DNA of 64,000 nt from an uncultured Microbacterium sp. (GTDB lineage Bacteria > Actinomycetota > Actinomycetes > Actinomycetales > Microbacteriaceae), in assembly GCA_964616805.1 (NCBI GenBank), contig CAZTUC010000014.1, positions 2,718 through 66,717 on the forward strand. Direction: 5' to 3'. The position numbers and the translations under genes were made by a program. Positions 1 through 5,940 of this stretch are shown here, piece by piece; the first letter of the stretch is position 1; every line of letters begins with the position of its first letter. The notes under the pieces are model-generated. The model was not told the origin of the DNA, searched no databases, and was given only the letters and a program-made list of their open reading frames with translations.

Positions 1-38
1 TGGCACGAAGAGGTGCCGCTTTCCGACATAATGGAGAT

Positions 39-674
39 GTGACGACCTCAGCGACGCATGCCCCGGCAGCGAACACAGTGAATCGACCGAACTCGGTCGC
101 AGTTGGAACGATCGTGTGGCTTGGCAGCGAAGTCATGTTCTTCGCCGGCCTTTTTGCGATCTACTTCACGCTGCGCAGCACTTCTCCCGAACTCTGGGAG
201 AGCCGCACGCAGCTGCTGAACATCCCCTTCGCATCGATCAACACGGCCATCCTGGTGCTGTCGTCGGTCACCGCGCAGCTGGGTGTGTTCGCAGCTGAGC
301 GGCATCAGCCGTACGGCAGCAAGGGCGACCCCAAGTGGTGGCGCCGCTGGGGCACCGTGCAGTGGTTCTGGCTTTCCTTCGCCCTCGGCGCGATCTTCGT
401 GTCGGGTCAGGTCTGGGAGTACGCAACCCTCGTTGCCGAAGGCATGCCGATCAGCGCTGACTCGTACGCATCCGCCTTCTACCTCACGACCGGCTTCCAC
501 GCCTTACACGTGACCGGCGGTCTGATCGCGTTCCTGCTCGTCATCGGGCGTTTGTACGCTGTGAAGAACTTCACCGCGAAGGAAGAAACCTCAGCGATTG
601 TTGTCTCGTACTACTGGCACTTCGTTGACGTCGTCTGGATTGTCTTGTTCGCCGTTATCTACTTCCTGAAATAA
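39..674 (+). CDS. ctaE: Cytochrome c oxidase subunit III
   Basis: [18 protein letters not shown] and [12 protein letters not shown]3 motifs; first gene of ctaE-qcrCAB; GTG start 6 nt after CATAAT. Confidence 0.95.
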
Positions 675-691
675 GAGCGGAATCGAAAAAC

Positions 692-1495
692 ATGGCACGC
701 ATGAAAAAACAACGCTCCAAGGGTCGCCGCAGTCCGCTGGCTGCCGCCGCCCTCATCGGTGTGGGTCTCATGATTTCTGGTGGTGCATACGCCGCCGCGT
801 CATCCGCCGTCGCCGCGCCAACCACGTTTACCGCGGTATCGAGCCAGGTCTCGGTTGACGACGGGAAGAAGCTCTTCCAAGCGAACTGCGCCACCTGCCA
901 CGGTCTGAACCTGCAGGGAACCCCGAACGGCCCGAGCCTTTTCGGTGTTGGTGAACTCGCCACCGAGTTCCAGCTCTCAACCGGCCGCATGCCGATGCAG
1001 ATGCAGGGCCCACAGGCACCGATGAAGAAGCCGCAGTTCACCGAAACGCAAATTCTTTCCATGGCGGCCTACGTGCAATCGGTCGCCCCGGGCCCGACGT
1101 TCCCCGAAGAATGGGTTCTCGACGGCAACGGTGACGTCTCACACGGTGCGCGCCTGTTCAACACCAACTGCGCAATGTGCCACAACGTCGCTGGCGCCGG
1201 TGGTGCGCTGACACAAGGAAAGTGGGCTCCCCCGCTGACCGAGACCAGCGCCCTGCACATTTACGCGGCAATGGAAACCGGCCCGCAGAACATGCCTGTT
1301 TTTGGCCAGATGAACCTTTCCAACGATGACAAGCGCGACATCATCTCGGCGCTGCTGTTCAAGCAGGAGGCAACCTCGGTTGGTGGCTTCACGCTCGGCT
1401 CGCTCGGCCCCGTTGCTGAGGGTCTATTCGTTTGGATTTTCGGTATCGGTGCGCTGATTGGCGTGACGATCTGGATCACGGCTCGTTCTAACTGA
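692..1495 (+). CDS. qcrC: Cytochrome bc1 complex diheme cytochrome c subunit
   Basis: Two CxxCH motifs (CATCH, CAMCH), N- and C-terminal TM segments, operon position. Confidence 0.95.
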   Translation: MARMKKQRSKGRRSPLAAAALIGVGLMISGGAYAAASSAVAAPTTFTAVSSQVSVDDGKKLFQANCATCHGLNLQGTPNGPSLFGVGELATEFQLSTGRMPMQMQGPQAPMKKPQFTETQILSMAAYVQSVAPGPTFPEEWVLDGNGDVSHGARLFNTNCAMCHNVAGAGGALTQGKWAPPLTETSALHIYAAMETGPQNMPVFGQMNLSNDDKRDIISALLFKQEATSVGGFTLGSLGPVAEGLFVWIFGIGALIGVTIWITARSN

Positions 1496-1524: not shown

Positions 1525-2655
1525 ATGGCACACCAAGAAGGCCAAGAGGTCGAGAATTACGGGCCGACCCCATCCGCGGGTCTCGGCGTCGAGATTCCCG
1601 ATGCGCCGGTAAACCCCGGCCTGGCACCGCACAACGTTCGCATTACCGATCAAGACCCGGCTGCGATGAAGCGCGCCGAGCGCACGGTTTACACCCTGTT
1701 CTATGTATCGGTAGCGGCCAGCATCTGGGCGATCGCGGCATACTTCCTGTTCCCGATCGAAGTCGCACACGACACCACACAGCAGAGCCTTGACGCGCTC
1801 GTTGCTGTGCGCAACAACAACCTCTTCATCGGTCTCGGTATCGCTCTGGCACTGCTGAGCATCGGTGTCGCTGCCATTTACTGGTCGAAAGCGATCATGA
1901 GTGACACCGAGTTCATCGAAGAACGTCACCCCACTCGCGGTAGCGAAGAAACGCGCGCAGCGGCCATCGAGGTCTTCGCAGACGCCAACGAAGAATCTGG
2001 TTTTGGTCGTCGCAAGATGATTCGCAACTCGCTTTTCGCGGCCGTTGTGGCATCCGTCCTTCCCGGAATCACCATGATGCGCGGTTTGGCACCTTTCAAC
2101 TCGGAAACACACCCCGACGCTGGAAACCCCGTTGCACTGCTGAGCCGTACCCTGTGGGCTCCAGAAGCGGATGGCACACTCCAGCGCCTCGCCCGCGACC
2201 CGGACGGTACGCCGATCCGCGCCGCTGATGTCACCCTCGGTTCGGCCTTCCAGGTCATCCCCGAGAAACTCGCAAGCTTGGGCCACCACGAGGGTTACCT
2301 GGACGAAAAGGCGAAGGCCGTTGTTCTGCTCATGCGTCTGAACCCAGAAGAGCTCGTCGAACAAGACAGCCGCAAAGACTGGTCCTACCACGGCATCGTG
2401 GCGTACTCGAAGATCTGCACCCACGTCGGTTGCCCGGTGGCGCTGTACGAGCAGCACACACACCACCTGCTGTGCCCGTGCCACCAATCACAATTCGATG
2501 TGACCCACCACGCACGCGTCATCTTCGGCCCGGCAGCACGCCCGCTGCCGCAATTGCCCATCACTGTTGATGACGAGGGTTACCTCATCGCACGCAGCGA
2601 CTTTACCGAACCCGTTGGACCGAGCTTCTGGGAGCGCCATGACACTCGCAGCTGA
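1525..2655 (+). CDS. qcrA: Cytochrome bc1 Rieske iron-sulfur subunit
   Basis: CTHVGC and CPCHQS Rieske motifs; three N-terminal TM segments with an RR motif (GRRKMIR). Confidence 0.95.
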   Translation: MAHQEGQEVENYGPTPSAGLGVEIPDAPVNPGLAPHNVRITDQDPAAMKRAERTVYTLFYVSVAASIWAIAAYFLFPIEVAHDTTQQSLDALVAVRNNNLFIGLGIALALLSIGVAAIYWSKAIMSDTEFIEERHPTRGSEETRAAAIEVFADANEESGFGRRKMIRNSLFAAVVASVLPGITMMRGLAPFNSETHPDAGNPVALLSRTLWAPEADGTLQRLARDPDGTPIRAADVTLGSAFQVIPEKLASLGHHEGYLDEKAKAVVLLMRLNPEELVEQDSRKDWSYHGIVAYSKICTHVGCPVALYEQHTHHLLCPCHQSQFDVTHHARVIFGPAARPLPQLPITVDDEGYLIARSDFTEPVGPSFWERHDTRS

Positions 2656-4921
2656 AAATAAGACTGCTGCCACCGACGAGTCGCAGAACACGCAAGAAAC
2701 AAAGCCCCTTGGTGGCCGCTTTGTTGCTGGCACCGCGAACTACCTCGACGAGCGCACAAGCCTTTCGGGCTTGGTGAAGGCACTCGGCCGCAAGGTCTTC
2801 CCCGACCACTGGTCGTTCATGCTCGGCGAGATCGCGCTGTGGAGCTTTGTCGTTGTGCTGATCACCGGTATCTTCCTGACGTTCTTCTTCGAAGCGTCAA
2901 TGGTTGAAACCCACTACCACGGCGCATACGCACCGATGCGTGGTATCGAAATGAGCGCCGCAATGGCGTCCACGCTCGAGATCTCCTTCGACGTGCGTGG
3001 CGGCCTGCTCGTGCGCCAAATGCACCACTGGGCAGCTCTCGTCTTCGTTGCCGGTATCGGTGTGCACATGCTGCGCGTGTTCTTTACCGGTTCATTCCGC
3101 AAACCGCGTGAGCTCAACTGGGTCATCGGTTTTGTACTGTTCATCCTCGCAATGGCTGAGGGCTTCACCGGTTACTCACTCCCCGACGATGTGCTCTCCG
3201 GTAACGGTCTCGCGATCATCAACGGCATGGTCAAGGGCATCCCGGTGCTCGGTACCTGGGTCTCATTCTTGTTCTTCGGTGGCCAGTTCCCCGGTACCGA
3301 AATTGTTGGCCGCTTGTACTCACTGCACATTTTGTTGTTGCCGCTACTGGTCATTGCGCTCATCGGTTTGCACCTGGTGCTCATGATCGTCAACAAGCAC
3401 ACGCAATTTGCTGGCCCGGCTCGCACCAACAACAACGTTGTCGGTTACCCGATGCTGCCGGTTTACGCAACCAAGATGGGTGGCTTCTTCTTCATCGTCT
3501 TCGGTGCAATCGCAGCCCTCGCAACGTTCTTCCAGATCAACCCGATCTGGAACTACGGCCCATATGACCCGTCACCGGTTTCGGCTGGTACCCAGCCTGA
3601 CTGGTACATCGGTTTTGCTGACGGCGCATTGCGTCTGGTTCCGCCACACCTTGAGACGTACTGGTTCGACCGCACGCAAACGTGGGCGATCATCCTGCCG
3701 CTTGTCGTGCTCGGTGTCTTCATCTTGCTTGTGATGTTCTACCCGTTCATCGAAGCGTGGATTACCGGTGACAAGCGTGAGCACCACATTGCGCAGCGTC
3801 CACGCACTGCCCCGACGCGTACCGCAATCGGTGTTGCTGGTGTGTTCTTCTACGCGGTCATGTGGGCTGCTGCATCATCCGACATCATTGCAACGCACTT
3901 CCATCTCACGATGGAGGGAGTCATCCACACGTTGCAGGCGTTGCTGATCCTCGGAACTCCGCTCGCGTACTTCATCACGAAGCGCATCGCGATTGCCCTG
4001 CAGAAGAAAGATCGTGAGATCGTGCTGCACGGTTACGAGTCGGGGCGCATCGTGCGTCTCGCTGGCGGTGAGTATGTTGAGGTTCACAAGCCGATGGATG
4101 TCTACGACCGCTGGAAGCTCATCGATAGCGAAGAGTACGCACCGCTCGTGGTTCGTCCAAACGAAGCCGGCCGTATCCCGTGGACGCAGAACCTGCGTTC
4201 GGCGATGTCGCGCTGGTTCTTCGAAGACCGACTCACGCCGCTGACGCAGAGCGAAATCACCGCTGCTGATGCACACCAGGTACACGCGCTGCACGACTTG
4301 GACGGTGGCAGCGGCCACGACGCCGCGGCGATCGCGACTCCGGCGCTCGAGGGTTCAACTGGGACAGCGGTTCGACTTTCTGGCTTCGCGCCCTCGGCGG
4401 ACGCTACCGCTGGTGCTGAAGCACCACAGGCTGGCGCTTCTGCACCGAAGATCGACTTCGGTGGTGGCGACACTGCTGGTACGGATGCATCGGGCACGGC
4501 CACTCCGGTTGGTTTCATGAGCACGCCCGAGGTTGCGCCGAAGCGCCCGACTCCCCCAACGTCAGGTGCTTCGACTTCGAAGAAGTCGAGCGGTTCAACT
4601 GCGAAGTTCGCAGATCTCGATCTGGCCGCCGGTCGTGAGGTTCTCGGCCGCAGCCGCAAACTCAACCCTGAAGATCTCACGGTTGTTGAGGGCATCGGTC
4701 CGAAGATTGCTGGCATCCTCAACGCTGACGGCATTGTCGACTGGAACGACCTTGCTGAATCGGCAATCGAGCGCTTGCAAGAGCTGCTGACCGAGGCTGG
4801 CCCGCGCTTCAACATTCACAACCCGGCTACCTGGCCGGCGCAGGCTAACCTGCTGCGCCAAGGCAAGTGGGAAGAGTTCAAGGCTCTCACCGACGAGCTC
4901 AACGGTGGCGTCGTAGAGTAA
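2639..4921 (+). CDS. qcrB: Cytochrome bc1 cytochrome b subunit, 760 aa, with a low-complexity linker and C-terminal HhH (COG3743-like) domain
   Basis: FPDHWSF, RQMHHWAA, HILLL and QPDWY cytochrome b motifs; ATG at 2639 follows GGAG and overlaps the qcrA end; frame stays open about 205 aa past the usual end. Confidence 0.93.
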   Translation: MTLAAENKTAATDESQNTQETKPLGGRFVAGTANYLDERTSLSGLVKALGRKVFPDHWSFMLGEIALWSFVVVLITGIFLTFFFEASMVETHYHGAYAPMRGIEMSAAMASTLEISFDVRGGLLVRQMHHWAALVFVAGIGVHMLRVFFTGSFRKPRELNWVIGFVLFILAMAEGFTGYSLPDDVLSGNGLAIINGMVKGIPVLGTWVSFLFFGGQFPGTEIVGRLYSLHILLLPLLVIALIGLHLVLMIVNKHTQFAGPARTNNNVVGYPMLPVYATKMGGFFFIVFGAIAALATFFQINPIWNYGPYDPSPVSAGTQPDWYIGFADGALRLVPPHLETYWFDRTQTWAIILPLVVLGVFILLVMFYPFIEAWITGDKREHHIAQRPRTAPTRTAIGVAGVFFYAVMWAAASSDIIATHFHLTMEGVIHTLQALLILGTPLAYFITKRIAIALQKKDREIVLHGYESGRIVRLAGGEYVEVHKPMDVYDRWKLIDSEEYAPLVVRPNEAGRIPWTQNLRSAMSRWFFEDRLTPLTQSEITAADAHQVHALHDLDGGSGHDAAAIATPALEGSTGTAVRLSGFAPSADATAGAEAPQAGASAPKIDFGGGDTAGTDASGTATPVGFMSTPEVAPKRPTPPTSGASTSKKSSGSTAKFADLDLAAGREVLGRSRKLNPEDLTVVEGIGPKIAGILNADGIVDWNDLAESAIERLQELLTEAGPRFNIHNPATWPAQANLLRQGKWEEFKALTDELNGGVVE

Positions 4922-4932
4922 ACGTCGCTACA

Positions 4933-4974
4933 CAAAGAGGGGCCCGGCTCGATCATGAGCCGGGCCCCTCTTTG
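4933..4974. terminator. Intrinsic terminator hairpin after qcrB
   Basis: Perfect 18-bp inverted repeat caaagaggggcccggctc / gagccgggcccctctttg with a 6-nt loop. Confidence 0.8.
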
Positions 4975-5001: not shown

Positions 5002-5940
5002 ATGAGCACGATCGACTACATCGATGCCGATGAGATCGCCCGGGTGATACGACCAGCAGAGGCAATTCATGGGATTCGGGATGCTTTGAAAGCAGGGGTC
5101 GATCCAGAAGCCGATCTCCCCCGGGTTTCCGCCCCACTCGGCAGTGGTGAATTCTTACTGATGCCGTCGCATAGCCCGACGGTAGCTGGAATCAAGATCA
5201 TTGCGGTTGCGCCAGACAACCCCAGCAGCGGGCTGCCGAGAATTCAGGGCGTGTACCTCTTGTGTGACGCTGCCACGCTCACGCCACAACTGTTCATAGA
5301 CGGCCCAGGGCTGACCGACTTGCGAACGCCAGCGGTATCGTTTGCCGCTGTGCACGATCTGCTGGCCTCACGCAGCACTCCGCTGAAGGTTGTGTTCTAC
5401 GGTGCCGGCCCACAGGCAATCGCGCACTTGCACACGCTCACGGATGCCTACGGTACGCCGTCCTCGGCGGTAGCAATCGTGCGAACCCCAGCGAACGTAC
5501 TCGGCGCGCACGTGTTCGACGAAATCGTCACAAGCGGGTCTCCTCGGGCGCGTGAGGTCACTGTATCCGCCGACGTCATCGTGTGCGCAACAAGCGCGAG
5601 CACGCCGCTCTTCGCGGACACTGACGTGCGTGATGACGCGGTCGTGATCGCCGTGGGCTCACATCACCCGACGGCCCGTGAATTGCCGGGGCCCCTGCTG
5701 GGGCGAGCTGATGTGATCGTCGAAGCTCGAACAACTGCGCTGAGTGAAGCGGGCGATGTCGTGATGGCGATCGAGGAAGGCGAGCTCACCGCTGGTGACC
5801 TCCTCCCGATGAAAGACATCATCACAGGCGATGTATCACTGCACCGTGATCGCCCTGTCGTGTTCAAGAGCACCGGCATGTCATGGGAAGATCTCGTGCT
5901 CGCAGAGACGATCGCGAAACGGTTCCGAGGCGACGCGTAA
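5002..5940 (+). CDS. Ornithine cyclodeaminase / mu-crystallin family NAD(P)-binding protein
   Basis: GIKIIAV, RTPAVS, FYGAGPQA, AVGS and VFKSTGMSWEDL family motifs; ATG 6 nt after TACGAT (leaderless-type). Confidence 0.85.
   Translation: MSTIDYIDADEIARVIRPAEAIHGIRDALKAGVDPEADLPRVSAPLGSGEFLLMPSHSPTVAGIKIIAVAPDNPSSGLPRIQGVYLLCDAATLTPQLFIDGPGLTDLRTPAVSFAAVHDLLASRSTPLKVVFYGAGPQAIAHLHTLTDAYGTPSSAVAIVRTPANVLGAHVFDEIVTSGSPRAREVTVSADVIVCATSASTPLFADTDVRDDAVVIAVGSHHPTARELPGPLLGRADVIVEARTTALSEAGDVVMAIEEGELTAGDLLPMKDIITGDVSLHRDRPVVFKSTGMSWEDLVLAETIAKRFRGDA

What the first reader, a model, noticed from the sequence alone, without database searches (positions are those of the whole stretch)
4304..4921. 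Cytochrome b (QcrB) fused to a helix-hairpin-helix COG3743-like domain
Seen: after the normal QcrB end (WFFEDRLTPLTQSE...) the frame stays open for 205 aa. It has a ~99-aa G/A/S/T/P linker, then a ~106-aa domain (ADLDLAAGREVLG...EDLTVVEGIGPKIAGILNADGI..WNDLA...GPRFNIHNPATWPAQANLLRQGKWEEFKALTDELNGG), and a terminator follows the stop. Known: DLxxIEGIGPKI is the HhH signature of COG3743-like domains, which I recall as stand-alone Bacteroidetes proteins, as add-ons to some ribosomal proteins, and as C-terminal extensions of alphaproteobacterial NuoE. The QcrB C-terminus faces the cytoplasm in the actinobacterial bc1-aa3 supercomplex. Inference: the supercomplex carries a tethered cytoplasmic nucleic-acid-like binding module that could link it to the nucleoid, RNA or ribosomes, or act in assembly or localisation. 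I do not know of this fusion being described for QcrB.
Basis: partly seen in the sequence, partly recalled or inferred. Interest (0 to 1): 0.72.

Follow-up and report, generated by a model that had tools for sequence, protein, structure and literature searches.

The report
Cytochrome b with tethered HhH module
In this Microbacterium-like genome the cytochrome b subunit of the respiratory bcc complex carries, on a floppy cytoplasmic tail, one copy of a widespread helix-hairpin-helix module of unknown function, which elsewhere is hung on complex I, photosynthetic reaction-centre complexes, ribosomal proteins and membrane anchors; the fusion is real, rare and under selection.

Summary
qcrB (2639-4921, 760 aa) is one open frame. 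It holds an actinobacterial cytochrome b core, a 99-aa linker rich in A/G/S/T/P, and a C-terminal 83-aa helix-hairpin-helix (HhH) module. A strong terminator hairpin follows the stop.

The module belongs to the large COG3743-type family (6248 cluster representatives). Sequence searches match it to the C-terminal domains of alphaproteobacterial NuoE and of Urf1/protein-O of RC-LH1 complexes.

The fusion is not the usual form. It was absent from 80 related qcrB loci and from about 800 Microbacteriaceae genomes searched.

It is not an assembly artefact. An independent assembly (81% nucleotide identity, same ctaE-qcrCAB operon) carries the same fusion. In that pair the linker has diverged through in-frame indels. 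The module's dN/dS is 0.32, against 0.05 for the core and 0.54 for the linker.

A third genome of the same genus has QcrB fused to a different, NuoE-type version of the module through an unrelated linker. That suggests two separate captures.

The module is acidic. In most relatives it is tethered to the cytoplasmic face of the membrane.

I read the tail as a flexible docking tag whose target is unknown. It is a new variant of known parts, of moderate interest.

The parts
3..674 (+). ctaE (cytochrome c oxidase subunit III), 5' end cut by the window edge
   Evidence: Pfam COX3, E 8e-18. The relative L084 has the same gene order.
692..1495 (+). qcrC, di-haem cytochrome c subunit
   Evidence: Two cytochrome c domains in Pfam.
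1525..2655 (+). qcrA, Rieske iron-sulfur subunit
   Evidence: Pfam QcrA_N and Rieske.
2639..4921 (+). qcrB, whole fused gene (760 aa plus stop)
   Evidence: One open frame. The ATG at 2639 overlaps the qcrA stop. The relative P0014 starts at the matching position.
2744..4114 (+). Cytochrome b core (aa 36-492). It has 8 hydrophobic helices, His pairs H129/H143 and H230/H245, and PDWY at aa 320.
   Evidence: NCBIfam bc1_QcrB_actin, E 5e-219. Hydropathy. Motifs.
4115..4303 (+). Conserved actinobacterial cytoplasmic C-terminal region of QcrB (aa 493-555, includes WFFEDR)
   Evidence: Conserved in all 80 related loci. dN/dS 0.10 against L084. Published structures place it on the cytoplasmic side (bioRxiv 10.1101/2021.06.16.448340).
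4304..4600 (+). Low-complexity linker (aa 556-654; A20 G16 S13 T13 P10 of 99)
   Evidence: Composition. It does not align at DNA level with L084, differs by in-frame indels, and has dN/dS 0.54.
4601..4663 (+). Lead-in helix before the module (aa 655-675), conserved only among close relatives
   Evidence: Alignment A1. Helix at residues 8-15 of the AF2 model.
4664..4912 (+). COG3743-type HhH module (aa 676-758), a five-helix domain
   Evidence: 6248 representatives at E <= 1e-3. AF2 pLDDT 93.8. Profile hit to the protein-O C-terminal domain, E 2e-9. dN/dS 0.31.
4673..4708 (+). HhH hairpin motif DLTVVEGIGPKI (aa 679-690)
   Evidence: E30, G31 and G33 are invariant, and D25, L26, I32, P34, K35 and I36 are at least 90% conserved, in 40 relatives.
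4933..4974 (+). Terminator-like hairpin (18-bp GC-rich stem) followed by a short T-rich tract
   Evidence: RNA fold -44.6 kcal/mol, z -8.2. L084 has an analogous hairpin after its stop.

Best explanation
This is a genuine, selected gene fusion. The cytochrome b subunit of the actinobacterial bcc(-aa3) complex continues past its normal cytoplasmic C-terminal region. It runs into a disordered tail of about 100 aa and ends in one COG3743-type helix-hairpin-helix module.

Shown here:
- The frame is continuous.
- The fusion is shared by a related genome from an independent assembly.
- The module evolves under purifying selection, while the linker drifts.
- The module belongs to the same family as the C-terminal domains of clade-A NuoE and of Urf1/protein-O.

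Established knowledge: QcrB has 8 transmembrane helices and a cytoplasmic C-terminus. The module therefore sits in the cytoplasm. A bcc dimer would carry two copies, each on a leash that could reach some tens of nanometres if fully extended.

Inferred: the module has no catalytic role in electron transfer. It acts as a docking tag that links the respiratory complex to something in the cytoplasm. Its relatives are used in the same way. Most are hung on Nout-Cin membrane anchors. Others sit on complex I, RC-LH1, NrfD, ribosomal proteins and PHA-granule proteins, nearly always through flexible linkers and often in tandem.

The target is unknown. My ranking is:
- about 40%: sequence-independent contact with a nucleic-acid backbone (nucleoid DNA or RNA) through the invariant G-I-G-P-K hairpin;
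- about 30%: a shared protein partner, in the manner of the acidic NusA AR2 (HhH)2 domain;
- the remainder: a role in assembly, possibly with later cleavage, or no role.
For: Continuous frame and domain calls.

Independent relative P0014/L084:
- It has the same ctaE-qcrC-qcrA-qcrB context and the same fusion.
- It is 81% identical at nucleotide level over the operon and 74% over the module. The linker cannot be aligned at DNA level but stays in frame.
- dN/dS is 0.05 for the core, 0.10 for the C-terminal region, 0.54 for the linker and 0.32 for the module.
- GC3 of the module is 0.71, close to the core's 0.74.

Module family:
- 6248 representatives and a 40-sequence alignment with an invariant hairpin.
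- A confident AF2 model.
- Hits among solved structures to D. shibae protein-O (E 2e-9) and Rdv. sulfidophilum Urf1.
- Both papers describe an N-terminal membrane part, a long flexible loop and this C-terminal domain, which is unresolved or cleaved (PMC12079452, PMC13066640, PMC12618627).

Membrane tethering in relatives:
- 107 of 170 relatives have an N-terminal hydrophobic anchor.
- In 84 of 103 of these there are more K/R after the anchor than before it, which points to a cytoplasmic C-terminus.

Other hosts: NrfD, bS1, phasin/PhaE, bL27, bL17 and OmpA-type proteins.

A second QcrB fusion, with a NuoE-type module, occurs in genome G467 of the same genus.

QcrB topology: hydropathy and the literature.
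Against:
- No experiment on this module family is known to me or was found.
- The module is acidic, which sits poorly with simple electrostatic nucleic-acid binding.
- Structural likenesses are generic (Z <= 7.1; no Foldseek hit at E <= 0.001).
- A dN/dS of 0.32 is only moderate constraint and rests on one pair of sequences.
- In Rdv. sulfidophilum Urf1 and R. capsulatus NuoE the equivalent domain is cleaved off (PMC13066640; Herter et al. 1998 as cited in PMC12618627). The mature QcrB might also lack it.
Confidence: 0.75

Rival explanations
1. The module is a protein-protein adaptor or regulator, not a nucleic-acid binder. Like the acidic (HhH)2 repeats AR1/AR2 of NusA or like SAM domains, it would bind a cytoplasmic protein. 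Candidates are another respiratory complex, an assembly factor or a dehydrogenase. In this way it would couple or tune the bcc-aa3 supercomplex.
For: The net charge is -8 and the pI 4.3, with a family mean of -3.6. VIA-align lists NusA AR2 bound to the RNAP alpha-CTD (Z 5.5) and several SAM domains among the best matches. The second half of the module is strongly conserved (G67, P75, W78, Q81 invariant; T77, A82 at least 90%) and is not a canonical HhH, so it could form a specific binding surface. Authors of the RC-LH1 papers propose a link between the photosynthetic and respiratory complexes (PMC12618627).
Against: The G-I-G-P-K hairpin, which contacts phosphate in classical HhH proteins, is almost invariant. 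The hosts are very varied (ribosomal proteins, PHA proteins, membrane anchors), so a single protein partner is hard to name.
Confidence: 0.3
2. The tail acts only during biogenesis and is then cut off, as in Urf1 to protein-3h and in R. capsulatus NuoE. The mature complex would carry ordinary QcrB. The module would be a transient assembly or targeting aid, or would be released as a soluble protein.
For: Cleavage in the linker of a homologous architecture has been shown by structure and SDS-PAGE (PMC13066640, read). Cleavage of the NuoE extension is reported in the literature (PMC12618627). The linker here is long, disordered and evolves fast.
Against: There is no evidence for cleavage in this organism. 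No conserved cleavage motif is visible between the two linkers.
Confidence: 0.15
3. The fusion is a neutral accident. A mobile HhH module landed at the end of an already variable tail, has no function and is tolerated.
For: Microbacterium QcrB tails are naturally variable, at 28-70 aa past WFFEDRL. The fusion was found in only three genomes. The module is promiscuous.
Against: The module has been kept intact in two lineages that differ at about half of their synonymous sites, with dN/dS 0.32 against 0.54 for the linker. All invariant family residues are present. A second fusion, with a different subtype, occurs in the same genus.
Confidence: 0.1
4. The fusion is an assembly or binning artefact: a chimeric contig, or a lost stop codon, joins qcrB to a foreign HhH gene.
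For: The genome is a draft of 55 contigs. Reads could not be inspected.
Against: The same architecture occurs in an independent assembly from another sample, with a diverged sequence. The module's GC3 matches the host gene. A terminator follows the stop in both assemblies.
Confidence: 0.03

Closest known systems
C-terminal extension of clade-A NuoE (complex I, Alphaproteobacteria; NCBIfam PRK12373 positions about 290-400)
   Same: The same module family is hung by a linker on the cytoplasmic side of a respiratory complex (E 7e-5 for this tail; E 8.5e-20 for the G467 QcrB tail). The function is unknown, and cleavage is reported in R. capsulatus (PMC12618627).
   Different: The host is a soluble-arm subunit of complex I in another phylum. 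This window's module belongs to the T-W-P-x-Q-A ... G-K-W subtype. That subtype aligns confidently with the NuoE type (represented by the G467 tail) only over the first 47 columns.
Urf1 / protein-O / protein-LRC / protein-3h of RC-LH1 complexes (PDB 8YY9, 8YZ2, 9WQV)
   Same: The architecture is a membrane part, a long flexible loop and a C-terminal module of this family on the cytoplasmic side of a bioenergetic membrane complex (E 2e-9 and 8.5e-5; PMC12079452, PMC13066640).
   Different: It is a small two- or three-helix accessory subunit encoded in the nuo operon, not a catalytic subunit. The module is unresolved or cleaved in the structures.
Canonical actinobacterial QcrB (M. tuberculosis, M. 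smegmatis, C. glutamicum)
   Same: It has 8 transmembrane helices, bis-His haem ligands, a PDWY-type Qp motif, and a cytoplasmic C-terminal extension that reaches CtaD (bioRxiv 10.1101/2021.06.16.448340).
   Different: Those proteins end at about 540-570 aa, and ordinary Microbacterium ones at about 570-620 aa. None of the 80 related loci carries a folded domain after the tail.
NusA acidic repeats AR1/AR2 and other (HhH)2 / SAM-like five-helix domains
   Same: A five-helix fold with an HhH hairpin, acidic and flexibly tethered at a C-terminus (2jzb_B, Z 5.5, 65 residues aligned).
   Different: The similarity is only generic (Z 4-7), and sequence relatedness is marginal (NusA hits at E about 0.01). 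The second hairpin of the module is long and has its own conserved motif.
Ribosomal proteins bS1, uS2, bL17, bL21 and bL27 with C-terminal HhH modules
   Same: The same module is appended through a low-complexity linker.
   Different: The hosts are ribosomal, not membrane proteins. Some carry several modules.

Membership tests
Actinobacterial cytochrome bc1/bcc subunit QcrB (NCBIfam NF050120) | Scores above the curated cut-off of the family model | tested here: met
   727.8 bits against a cut-off of 500, aa 36-492 matching model positions 2-458 of 458.
Actinobacterial cytochrome bc1/bcc subunit QcrB (NCBIfam NF050120) | Eight transmembrane helices, two bis-His haem ligand pairs, and a P-D/E-W/V-Y Qp motif | tested here: met
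   Eight hydrophobic segments. H129/H143 and H230/H245, and PDWY at aa 320.
Actinobacterial cytochrome bc1/bcc subunit QcrB (NCBIfam NF050120) | Encoded in a ctaE-qcrC-qcrA-qcrB cluster | tested here: met
   COX3, di-haem cytochrome c and QcrA_N plus Rieske lie upstream in that order.
COG3743-type HhH module (C-terminal domain of clade-A NuoE and of Urf1/protein-O; Pfam sees it as HHH_5 and DUF4332) | HhH hairpin motif h-x-G-I-G-P-K-h, preceded by D-D-L | tested here: met
   DLTVVEGIGPKI at aa 679-690. These columns are invariant or at least 90% conserved in 40 relatives.
COG3743-type HhH module (C-terminal domain of clade-A NuoE and of Urf1/protein-O; Pfam sees it as HHH_5 and DUF4332) | Significant sequence similarity to named members | tested here: met
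   Many relatives are named by JGI 'predicted flap endonuclease-1-like 5' DNA nuclease', which I recognise as the COG3743 name. The profile hits protein-O (E 2e-9) and Urf1. NuoE model, E 7e-5.
COG3743-type HhH module (C-terminal domain of clade-A NuoE and of Urf1/protein-O; Pfam sees it as HHH_5 and DUF4332) | Reaches the Pfam gathering score of HHH_5 or DUF4332 | tested here: not met
   HHH_5 scores 25.1 bits against 27, and DUF4332 15.4 against 23.2. These models cover only part of the module. Multi-copy relatives pass them. The near miss therefore reflects the models, not the family.
COG3743-type HhH module (C-terminal domain of clade-A NuoE and of Urf1/protein-O; Pfam sees it as HHH_5 and DUF4332) | Compact five-helix (HhH)2-like fold | tested here: inconclusive
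   The AF2 model is confident (pLDDT 93.8). Matches to solved HhH domains are middling (Z <= 7.1; Foldseek E >= 0.2).
FEN-1 / 5'-3' exonuclease (the name some sources give the module) | PIN-like 5' nuclease catalytic domain with its acidic metal site | tested here: not met
   No hit to 5_3_exonuc_N or 5_3_exonuc in the tail. The module is only 83 aa of helices.
Nucleic-acid-binding HhH domains (functional class) | Demonstrated binding to DNA or RNA | not testable with these tools
   Only indirect evidence is available. The hairpin is conserved, but the net charge is -8.

The most novel reading that the evidence does not exclude
The COG3743 module may be a general address tag that bacteria attach to their large energy, translation and storage machines: complex I, RC-LH1, NrfD-type quinol enzymes, the bcc complex, ribosomes and PHA granules. 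The tag would tie them to one common cytoplasmic structure, most plausibly the nucleoid or nascent RNA. Two separate captures of two subtypes by QcrB within one genus would then show direct selection for tethering the bcc-aa3 supercomplex to that structure. The two QcrB fusions would be a compact test case for assigning a function to a domain family with thousands of members.
Probability: 0.2. Interest if true: 0.8.

Novelty: new variant of a known kind. Interest (0 to 1): 0.55.

Why it matters
QcrB is the catalytic core and a drug target of the actinobacterial respiratory supercomplex, and its cytoplasmic C-terminal region already touches cytochrome oxidase. A folded, selected domain on a long leash at that end is a new accessory feature for this complex.

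The same module has just appeared as an unexplained, unresolved domain in cryo-EM work on RC-LH1 complexes, and it has long been noted on NuoE. Finding it on complex III as well, in two versions within one genus, and on an NrfD-type subunit, turns scattered oddities into a pattern. The pattern is a cytoplasm-facing tag that is repeatedly recruited to bioenergetic membrane complexes.

The family is large (thousands of sequence clusters), and I found no experimental assignment of function. A simple binding and truncation study would therefore have reach well beyond this genome.

Tried and rejected
- **Self-association of the module.** Complex prediction with two copies gave no verdict (score 0.00, controls not run). 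I draw nothing from it.
- **Fold searches.** Foldseek against the PDB found nothing at E <= 0.001. AFDB Swiss-Prot gave only weak rows, although these included the Paracoccus URF next to nqo2, bL21, uS2 and Haloferax PhaC. VIA-align wide gave only generic HhH/SAM matches, Z <= 7.1.
- **JGI metagenome scan with the module.** It returned one relative, a bL17-module fusion and not a QcrB.
- **Word-index search with the G467 tail.** No hits.
- **Second search with the P0014 tail.** No further QcrB fusions.
- **Gene neighbourhoods of eight actinobacterial anchor-module genes.** There was no consistent functional context. An OmpA-family gene lay upstream in two loci; RidA and an amidohydrolase also recurred nearby.
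- **AU test of whether the three fused QcrBs form one clade.** Monophyly was not rejected (p 0.106). Independent origin therefore rests on the free tree, the module subtypes and the unrelated linkers, not on that test.
- **Separate expression of the module from an internal start.** The only in-frame ATG or GTG in the linker and module start (4517) has no Shine-Dalgarno-like sequence, and L084 has no Met at the matching position.
- **Nuclease reading, as in the COG name.** Rejected, because there is no nuclease domain.
- **Literature.** Nothing was found on COG3743 function, on DUF4332 function, or on QcrB together with HhH.
Full report
**What is in the sequence**

The window begins with a respiratory gene cluster, in this order:
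- ctaE (3-674; Pfam COX3);
- qcrC (692-1495, two cytochrome c domains);
- qcrA (1525-2655; QcrA_N plus Rieske);
- qcrB.

The qcrB frame is open from 2567. The sensible start is the ATG at 2639, which overlaps the qcrA stop. The close relative P0014 begins at the matching position. The product is 760 aa.

NCBIfam's actinobacterial QcrB model matches aa 36-492 at 727.8 bits, against a cut-off of 500. I count eight hydrophobic helices. The two bis-His pairs (H129/H143, H230/H245) and a PDWY motif are present.

Aa 556-654 are 72% A/G/S/T/P. Aa 655-760 hold the motif DLTVVEGIGPKI and a helical domain. The stop is at 4919-4921. An 18-bp GC-rich hairpin at 4933-4974 folds at -44.6 kcal/mol (z -8.2). 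The consensus scan missed it only because its T tract is short. The next gene, of the ornithine cyclodeaminase family, most likely starts at 5003.

**Is the fusion real?**

The best substitute is an independent assembly.

Protein P0014 (722 aa) comes from a Logan assembly of another sample. It has the same architecture and sits in the same ctaE-qcrC-qcrA-qcrB cluster. Its DNA is 81% identical to the window over the operon and 74% over the module. The linker does not align at DNA level, yet stays in frame through several indels.

Nei-Gojobori dN/dS between the two genes is:
- 0.05 for the cytochrome b core;
- 0.10 for the conserved C-terminal region;
- 0.54 for the linker;
- 0.32 for the module.

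The module's GC3 (0.71) matches the core's (0.74). There is no in-frame start with a ribosome-binding site in the linker. Both genes end with a terminator hairpin. A chimeric contig or a lost stop codon is therefore very unlikely.

**Is it the usual form of QcrB?**

No. The genome is a draft of 2.47 Mb in 55 contigs, and its nearest QcrB relatives are from Microbacterium.
- In the 80 best related loci from species-representative genomes, no reading frame within 3 kb of qcrB matches the module.
- Microbacterium QcrBs are about 570-620 aa, with a 28-70 aa acidic, His-rich tail after WFFEDRL. Other Microbacteriaceae have about 545-575 aa.
- The module was not found in 400 genomes sampled across the family. 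In 400 sampled from the genus there was one weak hit.
- The window's own genome has a single copy.
- Two word-index searches of 5.8 billion protein clusters returned only this protein and P0014 as cytochrome b fusions.
- I found no paper that links QcrB with an HhH domain.

**A second, different fusion in the same genus**

The weak genus hit (genome G467, 86% complete) turned out to be another qcrB. It is cut at its 5' end by the contig edge. Its product continues after WFYEDRL through a charged, helix-prone linker that is unrelated to the one here. It ends in an HhH module.

That module is of the alphaproteobacterial type. It matches the C-terminal part of the NuoE model at E 8.5e-20, and also phasin PhaH, bL21 and uS2 models. 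The window's module matches NuoE only at E 7e-5. Profile comparison aligns the two confidently only over the first 47 columns.

In a maximum-likelihood tree of the QcrB core, the window and L084 pair with 100/99 support. They sit next to a Microbacterium MAG (L002) that lacks the module. G467 sits in another supported group, with L012, its nearest row, which also lacks the module.

An AU test does not reject forcing the three carriers together (p 0.106), and I named that group only after seeing the tree. I therefore call two separate captures, or a swap of module, likely but not proven.

**What the module is**

An exhaustive HMMER search found 6248 cluster representatives at E <= 0.001. It also found 318 at E <= 1e-30, but these scores are inflated by tandem copies of up to eight or ten.

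A 40-sequence alignment defines an 83-aa unit. E30, G31, G33, L63, G67, P75, W78, Q81 and G103 are invariant (module numbering, where residue 1 is aa 655). The consensus reads D-D-L-x-x-V-E-G-I-G-P-K-I ... A-G-x-R-Y-x-x-H-D-P-x-T-W-P-x-Q-A ... G-K-W ... G-G.

AlphaFold2 with that alignment gives a confident helical domain (pLDDT 93.8). Structural matches are generic HhH or SAM-like five-helix domains: the PolQ helicase-like domain, AF1548, NusA AR2 and the Rad51 N-terminal domain, all at Z <= 7.1. Foldseek found nothing significant.

Some sources name relatives 'flap endonuclease-1-like 5' DNA nuclease'. No nuclease domain is present.

**Links to solved complexes**

A profile search of PDB sequences hit two proteins:
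- protein-O of the Dinoroseobacter shibae RC-LH1 complex (8YY9 chain O, E 2e-9, aligned over residues 148-232);
- Urf1 of Rhodovulum sulfidophilum (9WQV chain a).

The papers describe the same plan: a membrane hairpin, a long flexible loop and this compact C-terminal domain. The domain is invisible in the maps, or has been cleaved off (PMC12079452; PMC13066640; PMC12618627). They note its likeness to the C-terminus of clade-A NuoE and state that its function is obscure. PMC12618627 also cites older work showing that R. capsulatus cleaves the NuoE extension.

**How relatives use the module**

Of 170 relatives in hand, 107 have a hydrophobic segment within the first 60 residues. In 84 of 103 of these, more K/R follow the segment than precede it. 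By the positive-inside rule this puts the rest of the protein in the cytoplasm. The rest of the protein is typically a coiled coil or low-complexity linker followed by one to eight modules.

Other hosts are:
- an NrfD-type membrane subunit (P0017);
- ribosomal proteins bS1, bL27 and bL17;
- phasin/PhaE-like proteins;
- an OmpA-type envelope protein.

AFDB rows add bL21, uS2 and Haloferax PhaC.

Within Actinomycetota, 16 of 400 sampled genomes carry the module. Only one of these is in the same class as the window's genome. The strongest matches I read through are single-pass anchor, coiled coil and module proteins.

The nearest relatives of the window's module (53-59% identity) have this anchor-type architecture, and one is labelled Acidimicrobiia. 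This suggests, but does not show, where the module came from.

**How it most likely works**

Published structures show that QcrB has eight helices and that its C-terminal extension lies on the cytoplasmic side, where part of it covers the D-pathway entrance of CtaD. The module is therefore cytoplasmic and sits at the end of a leash of about 100 residues, with two copies per bcc dimer.

Nothing suggests a role in electron or proton transfer. The recurring pattern is a flexible leash, a C-terminal position, tandem copies, and hosts that are large assemblies or membrane anchors. This points to a docking function.

For a nucleic-acid target, the evidence is the near-invariant G-I-G-P-K hairpin and the ribosomal and PHA-granule hosts. 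Against it, the module carries a net charge of -8 (pI 4.3, family mean -3.6). From memory rather than any test here, classical HhH contacts go through backbone atoms and sometimes bound cations.

For a protein target, the evidence is the acidity, the NusA AR2 likeness and the strongly conserved non-canonical second half.

My odds are about 40% nucleic acid, 30% protein partner, 15% transient assembly role with cleavage, and 10% no function.

**Verdict**

- The domain assignment and topology in the interpretation are supported. The proposed nucleic-acid function is untested.
- The fusion is a new variant built from known parts. It is rare but recurrent in one genus.
- It fits a wider, still unexplained habit of this module of attaching to bioenergetic complexes.

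Interest is moderate, 0.55. It would rise if the module's target were found.

Noticed in passing
L116 (G467:C95) 2711-4654, minus strand: A second genome of the same genus has qcrB fused to a NuoE/Urf1-type HhH module through a charged, unrelated linker. The gene is cut at its 5' end by the contig edge.
   Followed up: yes
P0017 (579 aa, Logan): An NrfD-family membrane subunit (polysulfide-reductase type, 8 hydrophobic helices) carries the same C-terminal HhH module. It is another quinol-handling membrane protein with this tag.
   Followed up: partly
L113 (metagenome contig Ga0123337_10000389), ORF holding 2501-2740: A protein whose N-terminus I read as ribosomal protein bL17 (not run through Pfam) is fused to one module of this family (55% identical to the window's module). 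P0176 is bL27 with three modules, and many Bacteroidota bS1 proteins carry one.
   Followed up: partly
L117 4088-6300 and L121 4389-6375: In two actinobacterial genomes outside the window's class, the anchor-coiled-coil-module gene lies directly downstream of an OmpA-family gene. P0198 joins modules and an OmpA domain in one protein. This may indicate a link to the cell envelope.
   Followed up: partly
window 4304-4600, compared with L001-L019: Ordinary Microbacterium QcrBs already have a variable 28-70 aa acidic, His-rich tail after WFFEDRL. In L084 the start of the linker still resembles that tail, so the module seems to have been added at the end of a pre-existing disordered tail.
   Followed up: partly
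window 1-64000; genome G000: The window has 59.6% G+C and the draft genome is only 2.47 Mb (95% complete). The complete or near-complete same-genus genomes listed are mostly 2.9-4.2 Mb. From memory, 59.6% G+C is also low for Microbacterium. G467, the other carrier, is also about 2.5 Mb.
   Followed up: no
window 5003-5940, plus strand: An ornithine cyclodeaminase / mu-crystallin family gene follows the qcrB terminator. The listed ORF start at 4867 overlaps qcrB and is probably not the real start. ATG 5003 fits better.
   Followed up: no
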